Sequence record: OM386662.1
Source: Escherichia phage vB_EcoM_ESCO47
Strand: one strand, 5' to 3'
DNA: 64,000 nt
A model generated the notes under the pieces. That model was not told where the DNA came from, ran no database searches, and worked only from the letters and a program-made list of their open reading frames with translations. The translations under genes were made by a program, and so were the position numbers. How positions within the stretch are numbered: the stretch's first letter is position 1; the number at the start of each line of letters is the position of its first letter. Positions 8,428 through 56,826 of the stretch are shown here, piece by piece.

Positions 8428-8462
8428 GTTTACATTATAGATGGACTATAGTATAGTAGTCC
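8428..8462 (+). promoter_or_regulatory. early promoter-like element with inverted repeat around -10
   Basis: -35 GTTTAC 8428-8433, -10 TATAGT 8452-8457 inside GGACTA...TAGTCC repeat 8443-8462; ATG at 8487. Confidence 0.5.
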
Positions 8463-28237: not shown

Positions 28238-28273
28238 GTTTACAGCTAAGTAGGACTATGATATAGTAGTCCT
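28238..28273 (+). promoter_or_regulatory. early promoter-like element with inverted repeat
   Basis: -35 GTTTAC 28238-28243, -10 TATAGT 28262-28267; arms AGGACTA 28252-28258 and TAGTCCT 28267-28273; ATG at 28294. Confidence 0.5.
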
Positions 28274-28293
28274 ATCTAAAGGAGGATAACATC

Positions 28294-28749: not shown

Positions 28750-28779
28750 GTTTACATCAAGGTAGGATTATGGTATAGT
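28750..28779 (+). promoter_or_regulatory. early promoter-like element
   Basis: -35 GTTTAC 28750-28755, -10 TATAGT 28774-28779, then AGTCCTATCAA; ATG at 28808. Confidence 0.5.
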
Positions 28780-28807
28780 AGTCCTATCAAAATATGAGGA
28801 ACACAAA

Positions 28808-29010: not shown

Positions 29011-29046
29011 TTGTACAAACTCCTGAGAGCAGAGTATAATGCTCTC
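29011..29046 (+). promoter_or_regulatory. promoter-like element (TTGTAC type) with inverted repeat
   Basis: TTGTAC 29011-29016, -10 TATAAT 29035-29040; arms GAGAGCA 29025-29031 and TGCTCTC 29040-29046; near-identical copy at 56780; ATG at 29085. Confidence 0.5.
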
Positions 29047-29084
29047 ATGGATTACAAAACATCAACTTACTTGAGGAAATTTAT

Positions 29085-35399: not shown

Positions 35400-35415
35400 A
35401 GGGCCCGAAGGCCCT
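35400..35415 (-). terminator. hairpin between genes 37 and 38 (minus strand)
   Basis: Minus-strand AGGGCC-TTCG-GGCCCT with weak U tract; likely attenuator or stability element. Confidence 0.35.
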
Positions 35416-48183: not shown

Positions 48184-48222
48184 TTTATAACAAGATAGGG
48201 CTATGTTATAGTAGCCCTATCT
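48183..48222 (+). promoter_or_regulatory. early promoter-like element with long inverted repeat
   Basis: -35 GTTTAT 48183-48188, -10 TATAGT 48207-48212; 11-bp arms AGATAGGGCTA 48193-48203 and TAGCCCTATCT 48212-48222; ATG at 48247. Confidence 0.5.
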
Positions 48223-50181: not shown

Positions 50182-50268
50182 CGCTTCAGTTTAAAAGTGT
50201 ATAATAAATTAACGGGATAAATACTATCCCGTTTGGAGTAATGATTACCAACCTATGCTGAGGAATAT

Positions 50269-52524
50269 ATGCAAGTAACTAAGAGCAGTGGTGTATCCCA
50301 AAATTTTGATGCACAGAAAATTATTCAAGTCTTAACTTGGCAATGTGAAGGAACACAAATTGACCCATATGAATTGTACGAAGAAATTAAGACCCATCTT
50401 GTCGACGGGATGAGCACCAAAGATATCCAGAAGATTTGTATTAAAGTTGCAGCTAACTCGATTTCTGTCGAAGAACCTGATTATCAGTATGTCGCTGCCA
50501 AAGGGCTAATGTTTGCACTTCGTAAAGATGTATATGGGCAGTTTGAACCGCCTGCTTTTATCGACCATATTTCTTATTGTGTTAATGAAGGCAAATATGA
50601 TCCTGAGTTGTTGTCTAGATATTCTGCAGAAGAAATCATTTATCTTGATTCTCGGATTAAACATGAGCGAGATTTTGATCTGACTTATGCTGGTGCTATG
50701 CAGCTTAAAGAAAAATACCTGGTTAAAGATAAAACAACTGGTAAGATTTATGAAACTCCACAGTTTGCTATCATGGCTATCGGTATGGCCTTACATCAAG
50801 ACGAAACTCATGACCGTTTGAAACATATTATTCGTTTTTATGATGCCGTTTCTACTCATCAAGTTTCATTGCCTACTCCAATTATGGCAGGTGCTCGTAC
50901 TCCGACTAGACAGTTTTCCAGCTGTGTAGTTATTGAATCCGGTGATTCGTTGAAGTCTATTAACAAAACGTCAGCATCAATTATCGAATATATTTCCAAA
51001 CGAGCTGGTATTGGTATTAACGTTGGTATGCTTCGCGCTGAAGGTTCTAAAATTGGCATGGGTGAAGTGCGTCATACAGGTGTTATTCCGTTCTGGAAAC
51101 ATTTCCAAACAGCAGTAAAATCTTGTTCTCAAGGTGGTATTCGTGGTGGTGCTGCAACCGCATATTATCCGATGTGGCATTTGGAAGTAGAGAACCTGTT
51201 AGTTCTTAAAAATAACAAAGGTGTTGACGAAAACCGTATCCGTCATATGGACTATGGAATTCAGATTAATGACCTTATGATGGAACGCCTTGGTAAAAAT
51301 GATTATATTACTTTATTTAGCCCTCACGAAATGTCCGGCGAATTGTATTACTCGTTCTTTGAAGACCAAGATAAGTTCCGTGAGCTTTATGAAAAAGCAG
51401 AAAAAGACCCGGCAATCAGAAAGAAACGAATCAAAGCATTAGAACTTTTTGAATTGTTTATGACTGAACGTTCAGGTACTGCTCGAATTTATCCACAGTT
51501 TGTTGATAACACGAATAACTACACTCCGTTTATTCGTGAAAAAGCTCCAATTCGTCAGAGTAACTTATGTTGTGAAATCGCTATTCCGACTAATGATGTT
51601 AACAGTCCTGACGCTGAAATTGGTTTATGCACGTTATCTGCTTTTGTATTAGATAAATTTGATTGGCAAGACCAAGATAAAATTAATGAACTTGCTGAAG
51701 TACAAGTACGTGCACTTGATAACCTGTTAGACTATCAAGATTATCCGGTTCCAGAAGCTTTAAAAGCTAAAAAGCGTCGAAATCTCGGTGTCGGTGTTAC
51801 TAACTATGCAGCTTGGTTAGCTTCTAACTTTGCCTCATATGAAGATGCTAACGATTTGACCCACGAATTATTTGAGAGATTACAGTATGGACTCATTAAA
51901 GCTTCAATCAAGTTGGCCAAAGAAAAAGGACCTTGCGAGTATTATTCAGACACTAAATGGTCTCGAGGCGAATTACCTATCGACTGGTACAATAAAAAGA
52001 TTGACCAAATCGCAGCTCCAAAATACGTTTGTGACTGGTCGGGGCTACGTGAAGACCTTAAGCTCTTTGGCATTCGCAACAGCACATTATCAGCTCTTAT
52101 GCCATGTGAATCAAGCAGCCAGGTTTCCAACTCTACAAACGGTATCGAGCCTCCACGTGGTCCGGTAAGTATTAAAGAATCTAAAGAAGGTAATTTCCGC
52201 CAGGTAGTTCCTAATATCGAACACAACATTGGTCTTTATGACTACGCCTGGAAACTTGCTAAGAAAGGTAATAAACCTTATTTGACTCAAGTTGCTATTA
52301 TGTTGAAATGGGTATGTCAATCGGCTTCAGCCAATACGTACTACGACCCAGAGAATTACGAGAAAGGTAAAGTGCCAATGTCTGTAATGCTTGACGATTT
52401 GCTTTACTTCTGGTACTTCGGCGGTAAAAACCTCTACTATCATAATACTCGCGATGGTTCTGGTACTGACGACTATGAACTAGAAACTCCAAAAGTTGAT
52501 GATTGTTCAGCTTGTAAGCTTTAA
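50269..52524 (+). CDS. nrdA: ribonucleotide reductase class Ia large subunit
   Basis: 751 aa; N-terminal ATP-cone; catalytic core. Confidence 0.95.
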   Translation: MQVTKSSGVSQNFDAQKIIQVLTWQCEGTQIDPYELYEEIKTHLVDGMSTKDIQKICIKVAANSISVEEPDYQYVAAKGLMFALRKDVYGQFEPPAFIDHISYCVNEGKYDPELLSRYSAEEIIYLDSRIKHERDFDLTYAGAMQLKEKYLVKDKTTGKIYETPQFAIMAIGMALHQDETHDRLKHIIRFYDAVSTHQVSLPTPIMAGARTPTRQFSSCVVIESGDSLKSINKTSASIIEYISKRAGIGINVGMLRAEGSKIGMGEVRHTGVIPFWKHFQTAVKSCSQGGIRGGAATAYYPMWHLEVENLLVLKNNKGVDENRIRHMDYGIQINDLMMERLGKNDYITLFSPHEMSGELYYSFFEDQDKFRELYEKAEKDPAIRKKRIKALELFELFMTERSGTARIYPQFVDNTNNYTPFIREKAPIRQSNLCCEIAIPTNDVNSPDAEIGLCTLSAFVLDKFDWQDQDKINELAEVQVRALDNLLDYQDYPVPEALKAKKRRNLGVGVTNYAAWLASNFASYEDANDLTHELFERLQYGLIKASIKLAKEKGPCEYYSDTKWSRGELPIDWYNKKIDQIAAPKYVCDWSGLREDLKLFGIRNSTLSALMPCESSSQVSNSTNGIEPPRGPVSIKESKEGNFRQVVPNIEHNIGLYDYAWKLAKKGNKPYLTQVAIMLKWVCQSASANTYYDPENYEKGKVPMSVMLDDLLYFWYFGGKNLYYHNTRDGSGTDDYELETPKVDDCSACKL

Positions 52525-52575
52525 GAATTTTAATTATAATTGACTCATGGATGAGTCACTATTGAGAGAATATAA

Positions 52576-53754
52576 ATGAGTACAGTTTTTAATACACAAC
52601 AAGTTGATGTTTTGAACGAACCTATGTTCTTCGGTTCAGGTCTCGGTCTTGCACGTTACGATATTCAACGACATAAAGTTTTTGAAGAGCTTATCGAAAA
52701 GCAGCTCTCGTTCTTTTGGCGTCCCGAGGAAGTAAACTTGATGTTGGATTCAGCCCAGTTTAATAAGCTTCCACAGTTCCAACAGGACATCTTTACCAAC
52801 AACCTTAAGTATCAATCATTATTAGATTCTATCCAAGGCAGAGCACCATCTGCGGTACTTATGTCATTGCTTTCAGACCCTTCATTAGATACATGGGTCG
52901 CTACATGGACTTTCAGTGAAACTATTCACTCTCGTTCATATACTCATATTATGCGAAATCTTTATACAGATCCATCGAAAGTATTTGATGAGATTGTATT
53001 AGATGACGCAATTATGAAGCGTGCCGAATCTATCGGACGATATTATGATGATGTTCTGGTTAAAACTCGAGCTTGGGAAAATTCTAAAGAATTTGTAGAA
53101 CAAGCTAAAGAATCTCCTGATGCCGACCTTCGTTTAAACCAAGCTATTAAACAAGAGTCTGAAGCTAAACGAGACCTAATGAAATCTCTTTATCTTTGTT
53201 TGCATGTCATCAATGCATTGGAAGCTATTCGTTTTTACGTGTCTTTTGCTTGTACTTTCAACTTCCATAAGAATATGGAAATTATGGAAGGCAATGCGAA
53301 GATTATGAAGTTCATTGCTCGTGATGAACAGCTCCACCTCAAGGGCACTCAATATATTATTCGTGCTTTACAAGACGGTGAAGACGGTGATGAATGGGTC
53401 AAAATTGCTCAAGAGTGTGAACAAGAAGCAGTTGATATTTTCATGGAAGTTAACGCTCAAGAAAAAGAATGGGCTGAACACTTGTTTAAAGATGGTGCTC
53501 TTCCAGGCCTAAATGTTAAAATCCTAAGTGAATTTGTAGATTATCTAACCGTGTCTCGTATGCGTAGTTGCGGTCTACCATGTCCTCTTAAAGACATATC
53601 AACTCGTCATCCTATTCCATGGATTCGTGAGTATTTGAACTCTGATTTGGTTCAAGCTGCACCACAAGAAGTTGAGATCAGTTCTTATCTTGTCGCTCAA
53701 ATTGATAATGACGTCAACCAAGATGTAATAAATTCATACAAAAAATATTTCTAA
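52576..53754 (+). CDS. nrdB: ribonucleotide reductase class Ia small subunit (uninterrupted)
   Basis: 392 aa continuous; di-iron/tyrosyl radical protein pattern. Confidence 0.95.
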   Translation: MSTVFNTQQVDVLNEPMFFGSGLGLARYDIQRHKVFEELIEKQLSFFWRPEEVNLMLDSAQFNKLPQFQQDIFTNNLKYQSLLDSIQGRAPSAVLMSLLSDPSLDTWVATWTFSETIHSRSYTHIMRNLYTDPSKVFDEIVLDDAIMKRAESIGRYYDDVLVKTRAWENSKEFVEQAKESPDADLRLNQAIKQESEAKRDLMKSLYLCLHVINALEAIRFYVSFACTFNFHKNMEIMEGNAKIMKFIARDEQLHLKGTQYIIRALQDGEDGDEWVKIAQECEQEAVDIFMEVNAQEKEWAEHLFKDGALPGLNVKILSEFVDYLTVSRMRSCGLPCPLKDISTRHPIPWIREYLNSDLVQAAPQEVEISSYLVAQIDNDVNQDVINSYKKYF

Positions 53755-53757
53755 GGA

Positions 53758-53773
53758 AGGGACTTAGGTCCCT
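53758..53773 (+). terminator. hairpin between nrdB and denA
   Basis: AGGGAC-TTAG-GTCCCT; weak T tract. Confidence 0.3.
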
Positions 53774-54192: not shown

Positions 54193-54221
54193 TTTACATA
54201 CCACATGGACTGTGGTATAAT
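54192..54221 (+). promoter_or_regulatory. early promoter-like element upstream of rnlA
   Basis: -35 GTTTAC 54192-54197, -10 TATAAT 54216-54221; CCACA...TGTGG repeat in spacer; ATG at 54248. Confidence 0.5.
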
Positions 54222-55374: not shown

Positions 55375-55404
55375 GTTTACAAACGCCAAGGATGGTGTTA
55401 CTAT
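55375..55404 (+). promoter_or_regulatory. early promoter-like element upstream of alc
   Basis: -35 GTTTAC 55375-55380, -10 TACTAT 55399-55404; ATG at 55433. Confidence 0.5.
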
Positions 55405-55432
55405 GGACATATCAATTACCTAGGAGAACATT

Positions 55433-56779: not shown

Positions 56780-56814
56780 TTGTACAAACTCTTGGGAGCA
56801 GAGTATAATGCTCC
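56780..56814 (+). promoter_or_regulatory. promoter-like element (TTGTAC type) with inverted repeat, upstream of pseT
   Basis: TTGTAC 56780-56785, -10 TATAAT 56804-56809; arms GGAGCA 56795-56800 and TGCTCC 56809-56814; near-identical to element at 29011. Confidence 0.5.
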
Positions 56815-56826
56815 TATGGACAATAA

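What the first reader, a model, noticed from the sequence alone, without database searches (positions are those of the whole stretch)
52541..52558. Perfect 18-bp palindrome between nrdA and nrdB
TGACTCATGGATGAGTCA lies in the 51-nt intercistronic gap, 18 nt upstream of the nrdB start. A perfect palindrome of this length could be an RNA hairpin controlling nrdB translation or processing, or a dimeric protein operator.
Basis: seen in the sequence. Interest (0 to 1): 0.3.

Follow-up and report, generated by a model that had tools for sequence, protein, structure and literature searches.

The report
Conserved GGA-loop RNA hairpin before nrdB
The inverted repeat between the two ribonucleotide reductase genes of this T4-like phage is a conserved RNA hairpin. 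Its loop (A-U-G-G-A-U) matches the binding site of the bacterial regulator CsrA, and it straddles the predicted start of the nrdB promoter, so a host protein may help control these phage genes.

Summary
The string TGACTCATGGATGAGTCA is at 52541-52558, in the 51-nt nrdA-nrdB gap. It is not a perfect palindrome: it is an 8-bp inverted repeat around a non-symmetric GG. Repeats of this size are not rarer than chance here (22 found, about 14 expected).

Conservation is the real evidence. In 19 distinct versions from related phages of enterobacteria the stem sequence changes but pairing is kept: 6 of 7 pairs change on both sides, and 89% of cells are paired against 22-41% in slid controls. The only invariant hairpin bases are A-N-G-G-A-N, closed by a near-invariant C-G pair. 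That is the published CsrA/RsmE recognition motif (AUGGA in apical loops).

The hairpin starts one base after a TATAAT. This -10 element sits 11 bp downstream of a MotA-box-like AAGCTTTA, the middle nrdB promoter already predicted in the literature. The predicted start, A52547, lies inside the hairpin, so only read-through RNA from nrdA can form it. The hairpin does not sequester the ribosome site, is not a terminator on the + strand, and has no other copy in the window.

Best reading (about 0.4): a host CsrA-type binding hairpin on read-through mRNA. An RNA structure is well supported. A dimeric DNA operator is not.

The parts
50269..52524 (+). nrdA (ribonucleotide reductase large subunit, 751 aa). 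The last codons AAG CTT TAA supply the MotA-box-like sequence.
   Evidence: Pfam Ribonuc_red_lgC/lgN/ATP-cone, E=1e-131
52514..52523 (+). MotA-box-like element GTAAGCTTTA (core AGCTTTA), 11 bp upstream of the -10. A sigma-70 -35-like TTGTAA (52512-52517, 17-bp spacer) overlaps it.
   Evidence: Sequence. Scan TTGTAA-17-TATAAT matches 10 of 12. Consensus (a/t)(a/t)(a/t)TGCTTtA, 12+/-1 bp from the -10, from PMC2988021. The same element is annotated as a T4-type middle promoter in OL960576. Wilson & Edgell 2009 place the nrdB middle promoter here in phages without mobE.
52535..52540 (+). -10 hexamer TATAAT of the predicted nrdB promoter, directly abutting the hairpin
   Evidence: A TA(T/G)AAT or TACAAT hexamer lies 7-8 nt before the YGGA of the loop in all variants, including L030.
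52547..52547 (+). Predicted transcription start (A, 7th base after the -10). It is the first base of the ANGGAN loop. Inferred, not mapped.
   Evidence: Position rule -12TAtaaT-7; sequence
52541..52558 (+). RNA hairpin: 5' arm 52541-52547 and 3' arm 52552-52558. The consensus structure in relatives is a 5-bp stem (52542-52546 with 52553-52557) plus a hexaloop.
   Evidence: Folding. Covariation: 6 of 7 pairs with changes on both sides, 88.7% paired against 22-41% slid, 0 of 500 shuffles. RNAalifold independently gives 5 bp plus a hexaloop, with all 5 pairs showing compensatory change. Covariance model hit of 44.6 bits, unique in the window.
52547..52552 (+). Apical loop AUGGAU (A-N-G-G-A-N) closed by C52546-G53. 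It contains the only invariant hairpin columns among relatives (A, G, G, A).
   Evidence: Invariant columns A16 G18 G19 A20, with C15 and G22 at least 90% conserved. Matches the CsrA/RsmE motif: ANGGAN hexaloop, CAGGA(U/A/C)G, RUACARGGAUGU; base-specific contacts to both A and both G, and the hcnA apex inferred as U-C-A-C-G-G-A-U-G-A; AUGGA in apical loops by CLIP-seq.
52564..52568 (+). Shine-Dalgarno-like GAGAG of nrdB, 5 nt after the hairpin. It holds no GGA.
   Evidence: Sequence. Its accessibility is not clearly changed by the hairpin.
52576..53754 (+). nrdB (small subunit, 392 aa, uninterrupted)
   Evidence: Pfam Ribonuc_red_sm, E=8e-36

Best explanation
The repeat encodes a conserved RNA stem-loop on the sense strand. 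It presents an A-U-G-G-A-U apical loop closed by a C-G pair, which is the recognition element of the host RNA-binding regulator CsrA.

It sits just downstream of the -10 of the predicted MotA-type nrdB middle promoter and 5 nt upstream of the nrdB ribosome site. The predicted start (A52547) is the first loop base. Transcripts reading through from nrdA therefore carry the whole hairpin. Transcripts started at the nrdB promoter carry only 5'-AUGGAUG... without the 5' arm.

Proposed mechanism: a CsrA dimer docks on the hairpin of the polycistronic RNA and modulates translation and/or stability of the downstream cistron, as at the glgC leader hairpin or the flhDC 5' end. Promoter-initiated RNA is bound differently or not at all.

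Shown: the structure, its covariation, the invariant loop, the match to the CsrA motif, and the promoter-like elements.

Inferred: the start site, CsrA binding, and the direction of the effect.
For: (1) Covariation. In 19 distinct variants, 6 of 7 pairs change on both sides. 88.7% of cells are paired against 21.8-40.6% when partners are slid, and 0 of 500 shuffles reach the observed score. RNAalifold independently predicts a 5-bp stem plus hexaloop, with compensatory change in all 5 pairs. All variants fold, at -3.3 to -9.4 kcal/mol.

(2) Loop conservation. The only invariant hairpin columns are A16, G18, G19 and A20. The closing pair is C-G in 18 of 19. Loop positions 17 (U/C) and 21 (U/C/A, never G) vary.

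(3) Match to published CsrA determinants. These are an ANGGAN hexaloop, the CsrB repeats CAGGA(U/A/C)G, and the SELEX consensus RUACARGGAUGU with invariant ACA and GGA. RsmE/RsmN make base-specific contacts to both A and both G above the closing pair. The hcnA pairs are U6-A15 and C7-G14, with C9 unspecific. In vivo CLIP-seq in Salmonella gives '[A/C]UGGA' and 'AUGGA sequences in apical loops'. Window 52545-52554 reads UCAUGGAUGA.

(4) Position just upstream of the SD, as for the glgC hairpin.

(5) The module is found in Tevenvirinae that infect Escherichia, Shigella, Yersinia, Citrobacter, Klebsiella and Enterobacter.

(6) GGA at +3 to +5 is not a general feature of middle-promoter-like sites in the window: 0 of the 13 other + strand sites have it. 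The loop conservation is therefore not explained by promoter rules.

(7) Two further intergenic hairpins nearby carry N-GGA-N loops, and the GGA is kept in relatives.
Against: No binding data exist, and I found no paper on CsrA and T4-like mRNAs.

The window has no second GGA at or near the nrdB SD (GAGAG), which the classical bridging-repression model needs. Only 11 of 19 relatives have one, and GGA is common in SDs anyway (sequences).

The motif CANGGANG is not enriched in the window (20 found, 17 expected). ANGGAN-loop hairpins are not enriched either (2 found, 1.3 expected with stems of at least 6 bp). The covariance model finds no other copy.

The module is kept upstream of quite different downstream genes: nrdB, a dam-like ORF and small unknown ORFs. 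That is odd for a gene-specific translational control.

The hairpin always sits in fixed register with the -10, so part of the loop conservation (A at +1) could be promoter-related.

The match to CsrA was noticed after looking at the loop (post hoc).

More distant T4-like phages, some of them also infecting enterobacteria such as Klebsiella/Raoultella and E. coli, have plain terminators or other hairpins at this junction.
Confidence: 0.4

Rival explanations
1. A purely structural intercistronic hairpin on read-through mRNA. It would act as a barrier to 3'-5' exonucleases, a weak terminator or pause site, or a 5' protective stem after cleavage in the AU-rich tract upstream. This would set the relative stability of the nrdA and downstream segments. 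The loop would be conserved only because it overlaps the promoter start region.
For: Almost every T4-like phage examined without a mobE-type insertion has some hairpin right after nrdA. Distant ones carry canonical terminators there (GCCCC-UUCG-GGGGC-U5, GGGGC-CUAGU-GCCCC-U11). Some close variants are followed by UUU(U), for example L013, L018 and L028. In the same slot L030 and L175 carry a UUCG-loop hairpin right after a -10-like hexamer. The window has many intergenic hairpins overlapping promoter elements. The covariation fits any structural role.
Against: It does not explain why exactly A, G, G, A of the loop are invariant while the stem drifts. Other middle-promoter-like sites show no GGA at +3 to +5. 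No U-tract follows the hairpin in the window, and the scan finds no + strand terminator. Wilson & Edgell state that phages lacking mobE have no terminator in this gap.
Confidence: 0.3
2. The loop is a target of a phage-encoded factor. The candidates are the RegB endoribonuclease, which cuts GG*AG/U in early intergenic regions, or an unknown phage RNA-binding protein. Such a factor would process or inactivate early read-through transcripts.
For: [quoted passage not shown] The window loop contains GGAU. The element lies in an early/middle gene cluster and only on read-through RNA.
Against: 5 of the 19 variants have GGAC or GGAA, and none has the preferred GGAG. The strong-site consensus GGAGRAYARAA is not matched. 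The review notes that secondary structure protects against RegB. The invariant A two bases before GGA and the C-G closing pair are not RegB features.
Confidence: 0.12
3. A DNA-level element: an operator for a dimeric protein at the promoter start, a cruciform, or a terminator for antisense (- strand) transcription.
For: The repeat spans -6 to +12 of the predicted promoter. The scan flags a terminator-like site on the - strand (hairpin followed by ATTATAATTA). The A.C mismatches at the loop-closing position would be G.U on the - strand.
Against: The arm sequences are not conserved, so a protein operator would have to co-evolve in every lineage. The conserved core is asymmetric. Arms of 5-7 bp are too short for stable cruciforms (general knowledge). 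G.U pairs inside the stem (L012, L033) would be C.A mismatches on the - strand. No - strand gene lies nearby.
Confidence: 0.05
4. A chance inverted repeat without function.
For: Repeats of this size occur at about the chance rate in the window (22 found, 14 expected). The 101-nt context folds no better than shuffles (z = 0.16).
Against: It is conserved, with compensatory substitutions, across several genera.
Confidence: 0.02

Closest known systems
CsrA/RsmE high-affinity binding hairpins (glgC leader hairpin, hcnA hairpin, CsrB/RsmZ repeats)
   Same: GGA lies in the apical loop of a short hairpin. The loop is an A-N-GGA-N hexaloop closed by C-G, and the apex UCAUGGAUGA differs from the hcnA apex only at the unspecific N (hcnA sequence inferred from the residue numbering). 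The loop AUGGA equals the in vivo enterobacterial CLIP motif. The hairpin sits just upstream of a Shine-Dalgarno sequence.
   Different: It is in a lytic phage mRNA, in an intercistronic gap, and overlaps a promoter start. The window has no second GGA at the SD. Binding is untested. There is a single site, not a cluster.
T4 hairpins that silence translation on early read-through RNA, with a promoter inside or just before the 5' arm (genes e, soc, 49, I-TevI)
   Same: The promoter is placed so that transcripts start inside the structure, and only longer upstream transcripts can form it (for gene e; architecture here).
   Different: Those hairpins contain the SD or AUG and use late promoters. 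Here the SD and AUG lie outside the stem and their predicted accessibility is not clearly changed. The promoter here is of the middle/sigma-70 type.
Predicted MotA-dependent nrdB middle promoter of T-even phages
   Same: [quoted passage not shown] This is where Wilson & Edgell 2009 place it in phages lacking mobE.
   Different: That work does not describe the hairpin. In T4 itself mobE is inserted, the promoter lies in the 3' end of mobE, and this hairpin is absent.
Intrinsic terminators and UUCG hairpins at the nrdA 3' end in distant T4-like phages, and the mobE internal terminator
   Same: A stem-loop within about 10-30 nt after the nrdA stop.
   Different: Those have GC-rich stems, UUCG-type loops and U-tracts. 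This one has an AU-richer stem, a GGA loop and no U-tract in the window.
RegB endoribonuclease sites (GG*AG/U)
   Same: A GGAU tetranucleotide in an early intergenic region.
   Different: Relatives carry GGAC or GGAA. The site lies in a structured context, and the A-rich 3' consensus is missing.

Membership tests
CsrA/RsmA-type binding site | GGA in the single-stranded apical loop of a hairpin | tested here: met
   Loop UGGA/AUGGAU in the MFE and centroid structures. GGA is invariant in 19 variants. Definition.
CsrA/RsmA-type binding site | Extended consensus A-N-GGA-N above a closing pair (CAGGA(U/A/C)G, RUACARGGAUGU, [A/C]UGGA) | tested here: met
   C-A-U-G-G-A-U-G at 52546-52553. A16, G18, G19 and A20 are invariant, C15-G22 is kept in 18 of 19, and position 21 is U/C/A but never G. 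Compared.
CsrA/RsmA-type binding site | A second GGA site 10-63 nt away, typically overlapping the SD, for dimer bridging (spacing figure from memory of Mercante 2009; the bridging principle is) | tested here: not met
   No GGA between 52552 and the nrdB ATG, and none in the 40 nt upstream. Present in 11 of 19 relatives (sequences).
CsrA/RsmA-type binding site | Physical binding by CsrA and CsrA-dependent regulation | not testable with these tools
   Needs EMSA, CLIP or reporter assays. No literature found.
Intrinsic (Rho-independent) terminator | GC-rich stem followed by a U-tract on the transcribed strand | tested here: not met
   No + strand terminator-like site in 52000-53000. The 3' flank is CUAUUGAG. 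Only a - strand match was flagged.
T4 TIR-sequestering hairpins (e, soc, 49 type) | SD and/or start codon paired within the stem on the long transcript | tested here: not met
   The SD (52564-68) and AUG lie outside the stem. Mean unpaired probabilities are similar for read-through and promoter-start RNAs.
T4 MotA-dependent middle promoter | MotA box (a/t)(a/t)(a/t)TGCTTtA centred near -30, 12+/-1 bp from a good -10 TAtaaT | tested here: met
   GTAAGCTTTA matches 8 of 10, the spacer is 11 bp, and the -10 is TATAAT. An equivalent site is annotated in OL960576. MotA dependence and the start site are not testable here.
RegB cleavage site | Unstructured GGAG (or GGAU) with an A-rich 3' context GGAGRAYARAA | tested here: inconclusive
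   GGAU is present in the window. Relatives have GGAC or GGAA. The 3' context is not matched and the site sits in a hairpin loop.
Palindromic operator for a dimeric DNA-binding protein | Conserved half-site sequence with dyad symmetry | tested here: not met
   The half-sites differ between lineages while complementarity is kept, and the conserved centre is asymmetric.
Rfam families | A match to a curated covariance model | tested here: not met
   Only chance-level hits (E at least 2) in 52000-53000, and none on the hairpin.

The most novel reading that the evidence does not exclude
T-even-type phages of enterobacteria place CsrA-recruiting hairpins (AUGGA-type apical loops) on read-through early transcripts at several gene junctions (nrdA|nrdB, denA|63, 63|alc). 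Each hairpin overlaps the promoter of the next gene. Expression from polycistronic early RNA would then be tied to the host Csr state, while promoter-initiated middle RNA escapes. This would be a host global regulator built into the phage's early-to-middle switch. It could relate to the reported stabilisation of the CsrA antagonist CsrB during T4 infection.
Probability: 0.2. Interest if true: 0.7.

Novelty: new member of a known kind. Interest (0 to 1): 0.42.

Why it matters
Ribonucleotide reductase supplies the dNTPs for phage DNA synthesis, and its two subunits are needed in equal amounts. The literature describes the nrdB promoter in phages without mobE but not this hairpin. One likely reason is that T4 itself has lost the module to the mobE insertion.

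If the hairpin recruits host CsrA, this would be a clear case of a lytic phage wiring a host post-transcriptional regulator into its own operon. It would also give a concrete, easily mutated site for testing how read-through and promoter-initiated transcripts of the same gene are treated differently.

If it is only a structural boundary element, it is an ordinary feature of compact T4-type intergenic regions.

Tried and rejected
- Rfam scan of 52000-53000 at E up to 10 gave nothing on the hairpin.
- A degenerate DNA pattern scan of viral contigs was too loose.
- The metagenome scan with the NrdA C-terminus returned mostly bacterial nrdA and about 11 useful phage loci.
- The covariance model R1 found no second copy in the window; the next best hit was 15.9 bits, E = 0.3.
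- The enrichment tests were negative: CANGGANG 20 found against 17 expected, and ANGGAN-loop hairpins 10 against 9.7 (stem of at least 4 bp) and 2 against 1.3 (stem of at least 6 bp).
- Translation control by occluding the SD or AUG: folding of read-through and promoter-start RNAs showed no consistent difference.
- Tseng et al. 1990 on the T4 nrdB promoter is not held in the library.
- A leaderless mini-ORF starting at ATG 52547 (10 codons, with its stop overlapping the nrdB ATG) was considered. Its frame is not conserved: it is in frame with nrdB in JS98-like phages, and no 5' AUG would be present in the CACGGA variants.
- L030 first looked like a case where the hairpin is uncoupled from a promoter. 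On inspection it has its own TGCTATA-12-TACAAT placed 8 nt before the loop, so it is not uncoupled.

Full report
**What is there.** Window 52541-52558 reads TGACTCATGGATGAGTCA. The flanking ORFs are nrdA (50269-52524; Ribonuc_red_lgC/lgN/ATP-cone) and nrdB (52576-53754; Ribonuc_red_sm). Thymidylate synthase lies upstream and a GIY-YIG denA-like gene downstream, which is the T4 gene order. The gap is 51 nt.

The string is not a perfect palindrome. Its reverse complement differs at the central GG/CC. It is an 8+2+8 inverted repeat that folds as RNA into a 7-bp stem with a UGGA loop, at -8.0 kcal/mol. Perfect repeats with 8-bp arms and spacers of 0-8 occur 22 times in the window, against 14.1 +/- 4.3 in Markov simulations. 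The 101-nt context does not fold better than shuffles (z = 0.16). The repeat alone therefore proves nothing.

**Relatives.** The window is a T4-like phage. Its nearest GenBank matches to this segment are about 90% identical Escherichia and Shigella phages. By NrdA C-terminus it is nearest to Tequatrovirus/Mosigvirus-type phages. I collected the nrdA-downstream junction from IMG/VR contigs, metagenomes and GenBank genomes of several genera.

In Tevenvirinae infecting Escherichia, Shigella, Yersinia, Citrobacter, Klebsiella and Enterobacter, the nrdA stop is followed by the same module: a TATAAT-like hexamer, a hairpin starting 0-3 nt later, and then a Shine-Dalgarno sequence and a start codon. 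The stem sequences differ:
- TGACTCA/TGAGTCA
- GGACCA/TGGTCC
- AGGGATA/TATCCCT
- AGGACA/TGTCCT
- GGCTC(A)/(T)GAGCC
- GCTCA/TGAGC
- AGACCA/TGGTT with a G.U pair

On an ungapped alignment of 19 distinct versions (A2), 6 of 7 pairs show changes on both sides. 88.7% of cells are paired, against 21.8-40.6% when the 3' partners are slid by 1-3 columns. No shuffle out of 500 reaches the observed pairing or covariation score. RNAalifold, run without my structure, predicts a 5-bp stem and a 6-nt loop, with compensatory changes in all five pairs. It argues against a sequence-specific dimeric operator, because the half-sites are not conserved.

**The loop.** Within the hairpin, the invariant columns are A16, G18, G19 and A20, and C15 and G22 are at least 90% conserved. 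The conserved element is therefore C-[A-N-G-G-A-N]-G, with N17 = U/C and N21 = U/C/A but never G. The A16-N21 pair is broken in 5 of 19 variants, so the consensus is a hexaloop closed by C-G.

This is the published recognition element of CsrA/RsmA-family proteins:
- CsrB repeats are CAGGA(U/A/C)G.
- The SELEX consensus is RUACARGGAUGU, with invariant ACA and GGA, mostly as six-nucleotide loops.
- RsmE binds hairpins with an ANGGAN hexaloop (PMC7652899).
- The structures show base-specific contacts to both adenines and both guanines above the closing pair. In hcnA the pairs are U6-A15 and C7-G14, and C9 is contacted unspecifically (PMC3791407). From that numbering I infer the hcnA apex as U-C-A-C-G-G-A-U-G-A. 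Window 52545-52554 is U-C-A-U-G-G-A-U-G-A.
- In vivo CLIP-seq in Salmonella gives '[A/C]UGGA' and 'AUGGA sequences in apical loops' (PMC5207318).

The hairpin also sits just upstream of the SD, like the high-affinity glgC hairpin.

**The promoter.** TATAAT (52535-52540) abuts the hairpin. AAGCTTTA, made by the last nrdA codons AAG CTT TAA, lies 11 bp upstream and resembles the MotA box. The published rule is (a/t)(a/t)(a/t)TGCTTtA positioned 12 +/- 1 bp from -12TAtaaT-7 (PMC2988021). A sigma-70 -35-like TTGTAA also fits, with a 17-bp spacer.

The same site is annotated as a T4-type middle promoter in OL960576. [quoted passage not shown] The promoter is therefore already known or predicted. The hairpin is not mentioned.

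The canonical start, the 7th base after the hexamer, is A52547, which is the first base of the ANGGAN loop. If that holds, only read-through RNA from upstream promoters contains both arms, and promoter-initiated RNA begins 5'-AUGGAUGAGUCA. The distance from the hexamer to the loop is 7-8 nt in every variant. That includes L030, where the whole module (TGCTATA-12-TACAAT-8 nt-hairpin-SD) sits before nrdB behind an inserted ORF. The 13 other middle-promoter-like sites on the + strand of the window have no GGA at +3 to +5. Promoter rules therefore do not explain the loop.

**What it is not.**
- It is not a + strand intrinsic terminator: there is no U-tract, and only a lenient - strand match was flagged.
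- It does not sequester the ribosome site: the predicted accessibility of the SD and AUG is similar in read-through and promoter-start RNAs.
- It matches no Rfam family.
- It has no second copy in the window (covariance model R1).
- T4-type genomes with mobE, whose start overlaps the nrdA stop as TAATG, lack the module. This probably explains why it has not been studied.
- More distant T4-like phages (Slopekvirus, Krischvirus, RB16-like, Aeromonas, Acinetobacter and others) have canonical UUCG/U-tract terminators, a hairpin inside a promoter spacer, or a homing endonuclease gene at this junction.

**Interpretation.** That this is a functional sense-strand RNA stem-loop is well supported (about 0.9). 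What reads it is inferred.

The best single explanation for an invariant A-N-GGA-N loop on a drifting stem, in phages of enterobacteria, next to an SD, is docking of host CsrA. Consequences for translation and/or stability of the read-through mRNA would follow.

The main weaknesses are these:
- There are no binding data and no literature.
- The window has no second GGA at the nrdB SD.
- Neither the motif nor ANGGAN-loop hairpins are enriched in the window.
- The same module sits upstream of different downstream genes in different genera.
- The loop-promoter register is fixed.
- The match was recognised post hoc.

The main rival is a purely structural boundary element: an exonuclease barrier, a weak terminator, or a 5' protective stem after processing. 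It would be continuous with the terminators seen at this junction in distant relatives. This explains the stem but not the loop. RegB (GG*AG/U) fits the window's GGAU but not the GGAC and GGAA variants, nor the structured context. DNA-level readings are unlikely.

**Context that may matter.** Two further intergenic hairpins within 3 kb carry GGA loops. Each lies in the spacer of an early-type promoter (GTTTACA...TAnnnT):
- 54198-54218 is ACCACA-UGGAC-UGUGGU. Relatives have AGGAU, UGGAG or CGGAG, so the GGA is kept.
- 55382-55399 is AACGCC-AAGGAU-GGUGUU. The nearest relative has AACACC-AAGGAA-GGUGUU, a compensatory change.

These too would exist only on read-through RNA. A T4 omics study reports that the CsrA antagonist CsrB is stabilised during infection. 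These points motivate the broader reading but do not establish it.

**Verdict.** The RNA hairpin reading is right and the operator reading is wrong. The promoter next to it is known, while the conserved GGA-loop hairpin and its likeness to a CsrA site appear undescribed. It is a new member of known kinds of element, and of moderate interest until binding is tested.

Noticed in passing
window 54193-54220: Hairpin ATACCACA-TGGAC-TGTGGTAT lies in the spacer of an early-type promoter (GTTTACA ... TATAAT) between the denA-like gene and the 374-aa ORF I take to be gene 63. Relatives keep GGA in the loop while the flanking loop bases vary (AGGAT, TGGAG, CGGAG).
   Followed up: partly
window 55376-55405: Hairpin AACGCC-AAGGAT-GGTGTT lies in the spacer of GTTTACA ... 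TACTAT between the two ORFs I assign to gene 63 and alc. Its loop AAGGAU is identical to the RsmZ-2 loop cited. The hairpin is present only in the nearest lineage (L249, with a compensatory G>A) and absent in JS98-like and other relatives.
   Followed up: partly
window 50182-50233: A middle-promoter-like CGCTTCA-11-TATAAT upstream of nrdA is followed at about +1 by a 9-bp hairpin, AACGGGATA-AATAC-TATCCCGTT. This would sit at the very 5' end of the nrdA middle transcript.
   Followed up: no
window 8443-8462, 28250-28275, 28763-28786, 48193-48222; also 29024-29047 and 56793-56816: Two small families of intergenic hairpins have loops that contain a -10-like sequence: TAGGRCTA-TGNTATAG-TAGYCCTA and TGRGAGCA-GAGTATAA-TGCTCYYA. 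They may be promoter-in-hairpin modules.
   Followed up: no
window 5334, 7089, 12480, 20914, 22795, 27409, 31287, 47685, 61813, 62765 (and CGAA on the other strand at 35400, 39393): There are many GC-rich hairpins with UUCG tetraloops. Most are intergenic, which is the classical T4-type stable hairpin.
   Followed up: no
window 52547-52579: A 10-codon mini-ORF (ATG GAT GAG TCA CTA TTG AGA GAA TAT AAA TGA) starts in the hairpin loop. Its stop overlaps the nrdB ATG (ATGA). In JS98-like relatives the same ATG is in frame with nrdB, so the frame is not conserved.
   Followed up: partly
L008, L010, L011, L015, L029; L013, L014, L018-L020, L022, L024, L027, L028, L035; L263, L265, L266: The slot after nrdA is an insertion hot spot. 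Some phages carry mobE-like ORFs whose ATG overlaps the nrdA stop, and the promoter-hairpin module is then lost. Others carry unrelated ORFs inserted after the hairpin, with the module kept. These include a dam-like ORF in a Marfavirus and small unknown ORFs in Moonvirus and Kanagawavirus.
   Followed up: partly
L030 (IMG/VR contig 3300045988_040361), about 1028-1500: nrdA is followed by TGTAAT plus a UUCG hairpin (GGGGAC-TTCG-GTCCCC) and an inserted ORF. The complete MotA-box-like/-10/ANGGAN-hairpin/SD module is retained directly upstream of nrdB.
   Followed up: partly
window 53757-53773: Hairpin AGGGAC-TTAG-GTCCCT lies in the 27-nt gap between nrdB and the denA-like gene. It is preceded by TAAGGAA, which overlaps the nrdB stop.
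   Followed up: no
window 52576-53754 vs L260 (MZ501098): nrdB is uninterrupted here (392 aa). In phage PaulHMueller, the closest relative by NrdA C-terminus, nrdB is annotated as a two-piece join (intron-containing).
   Followed up: no
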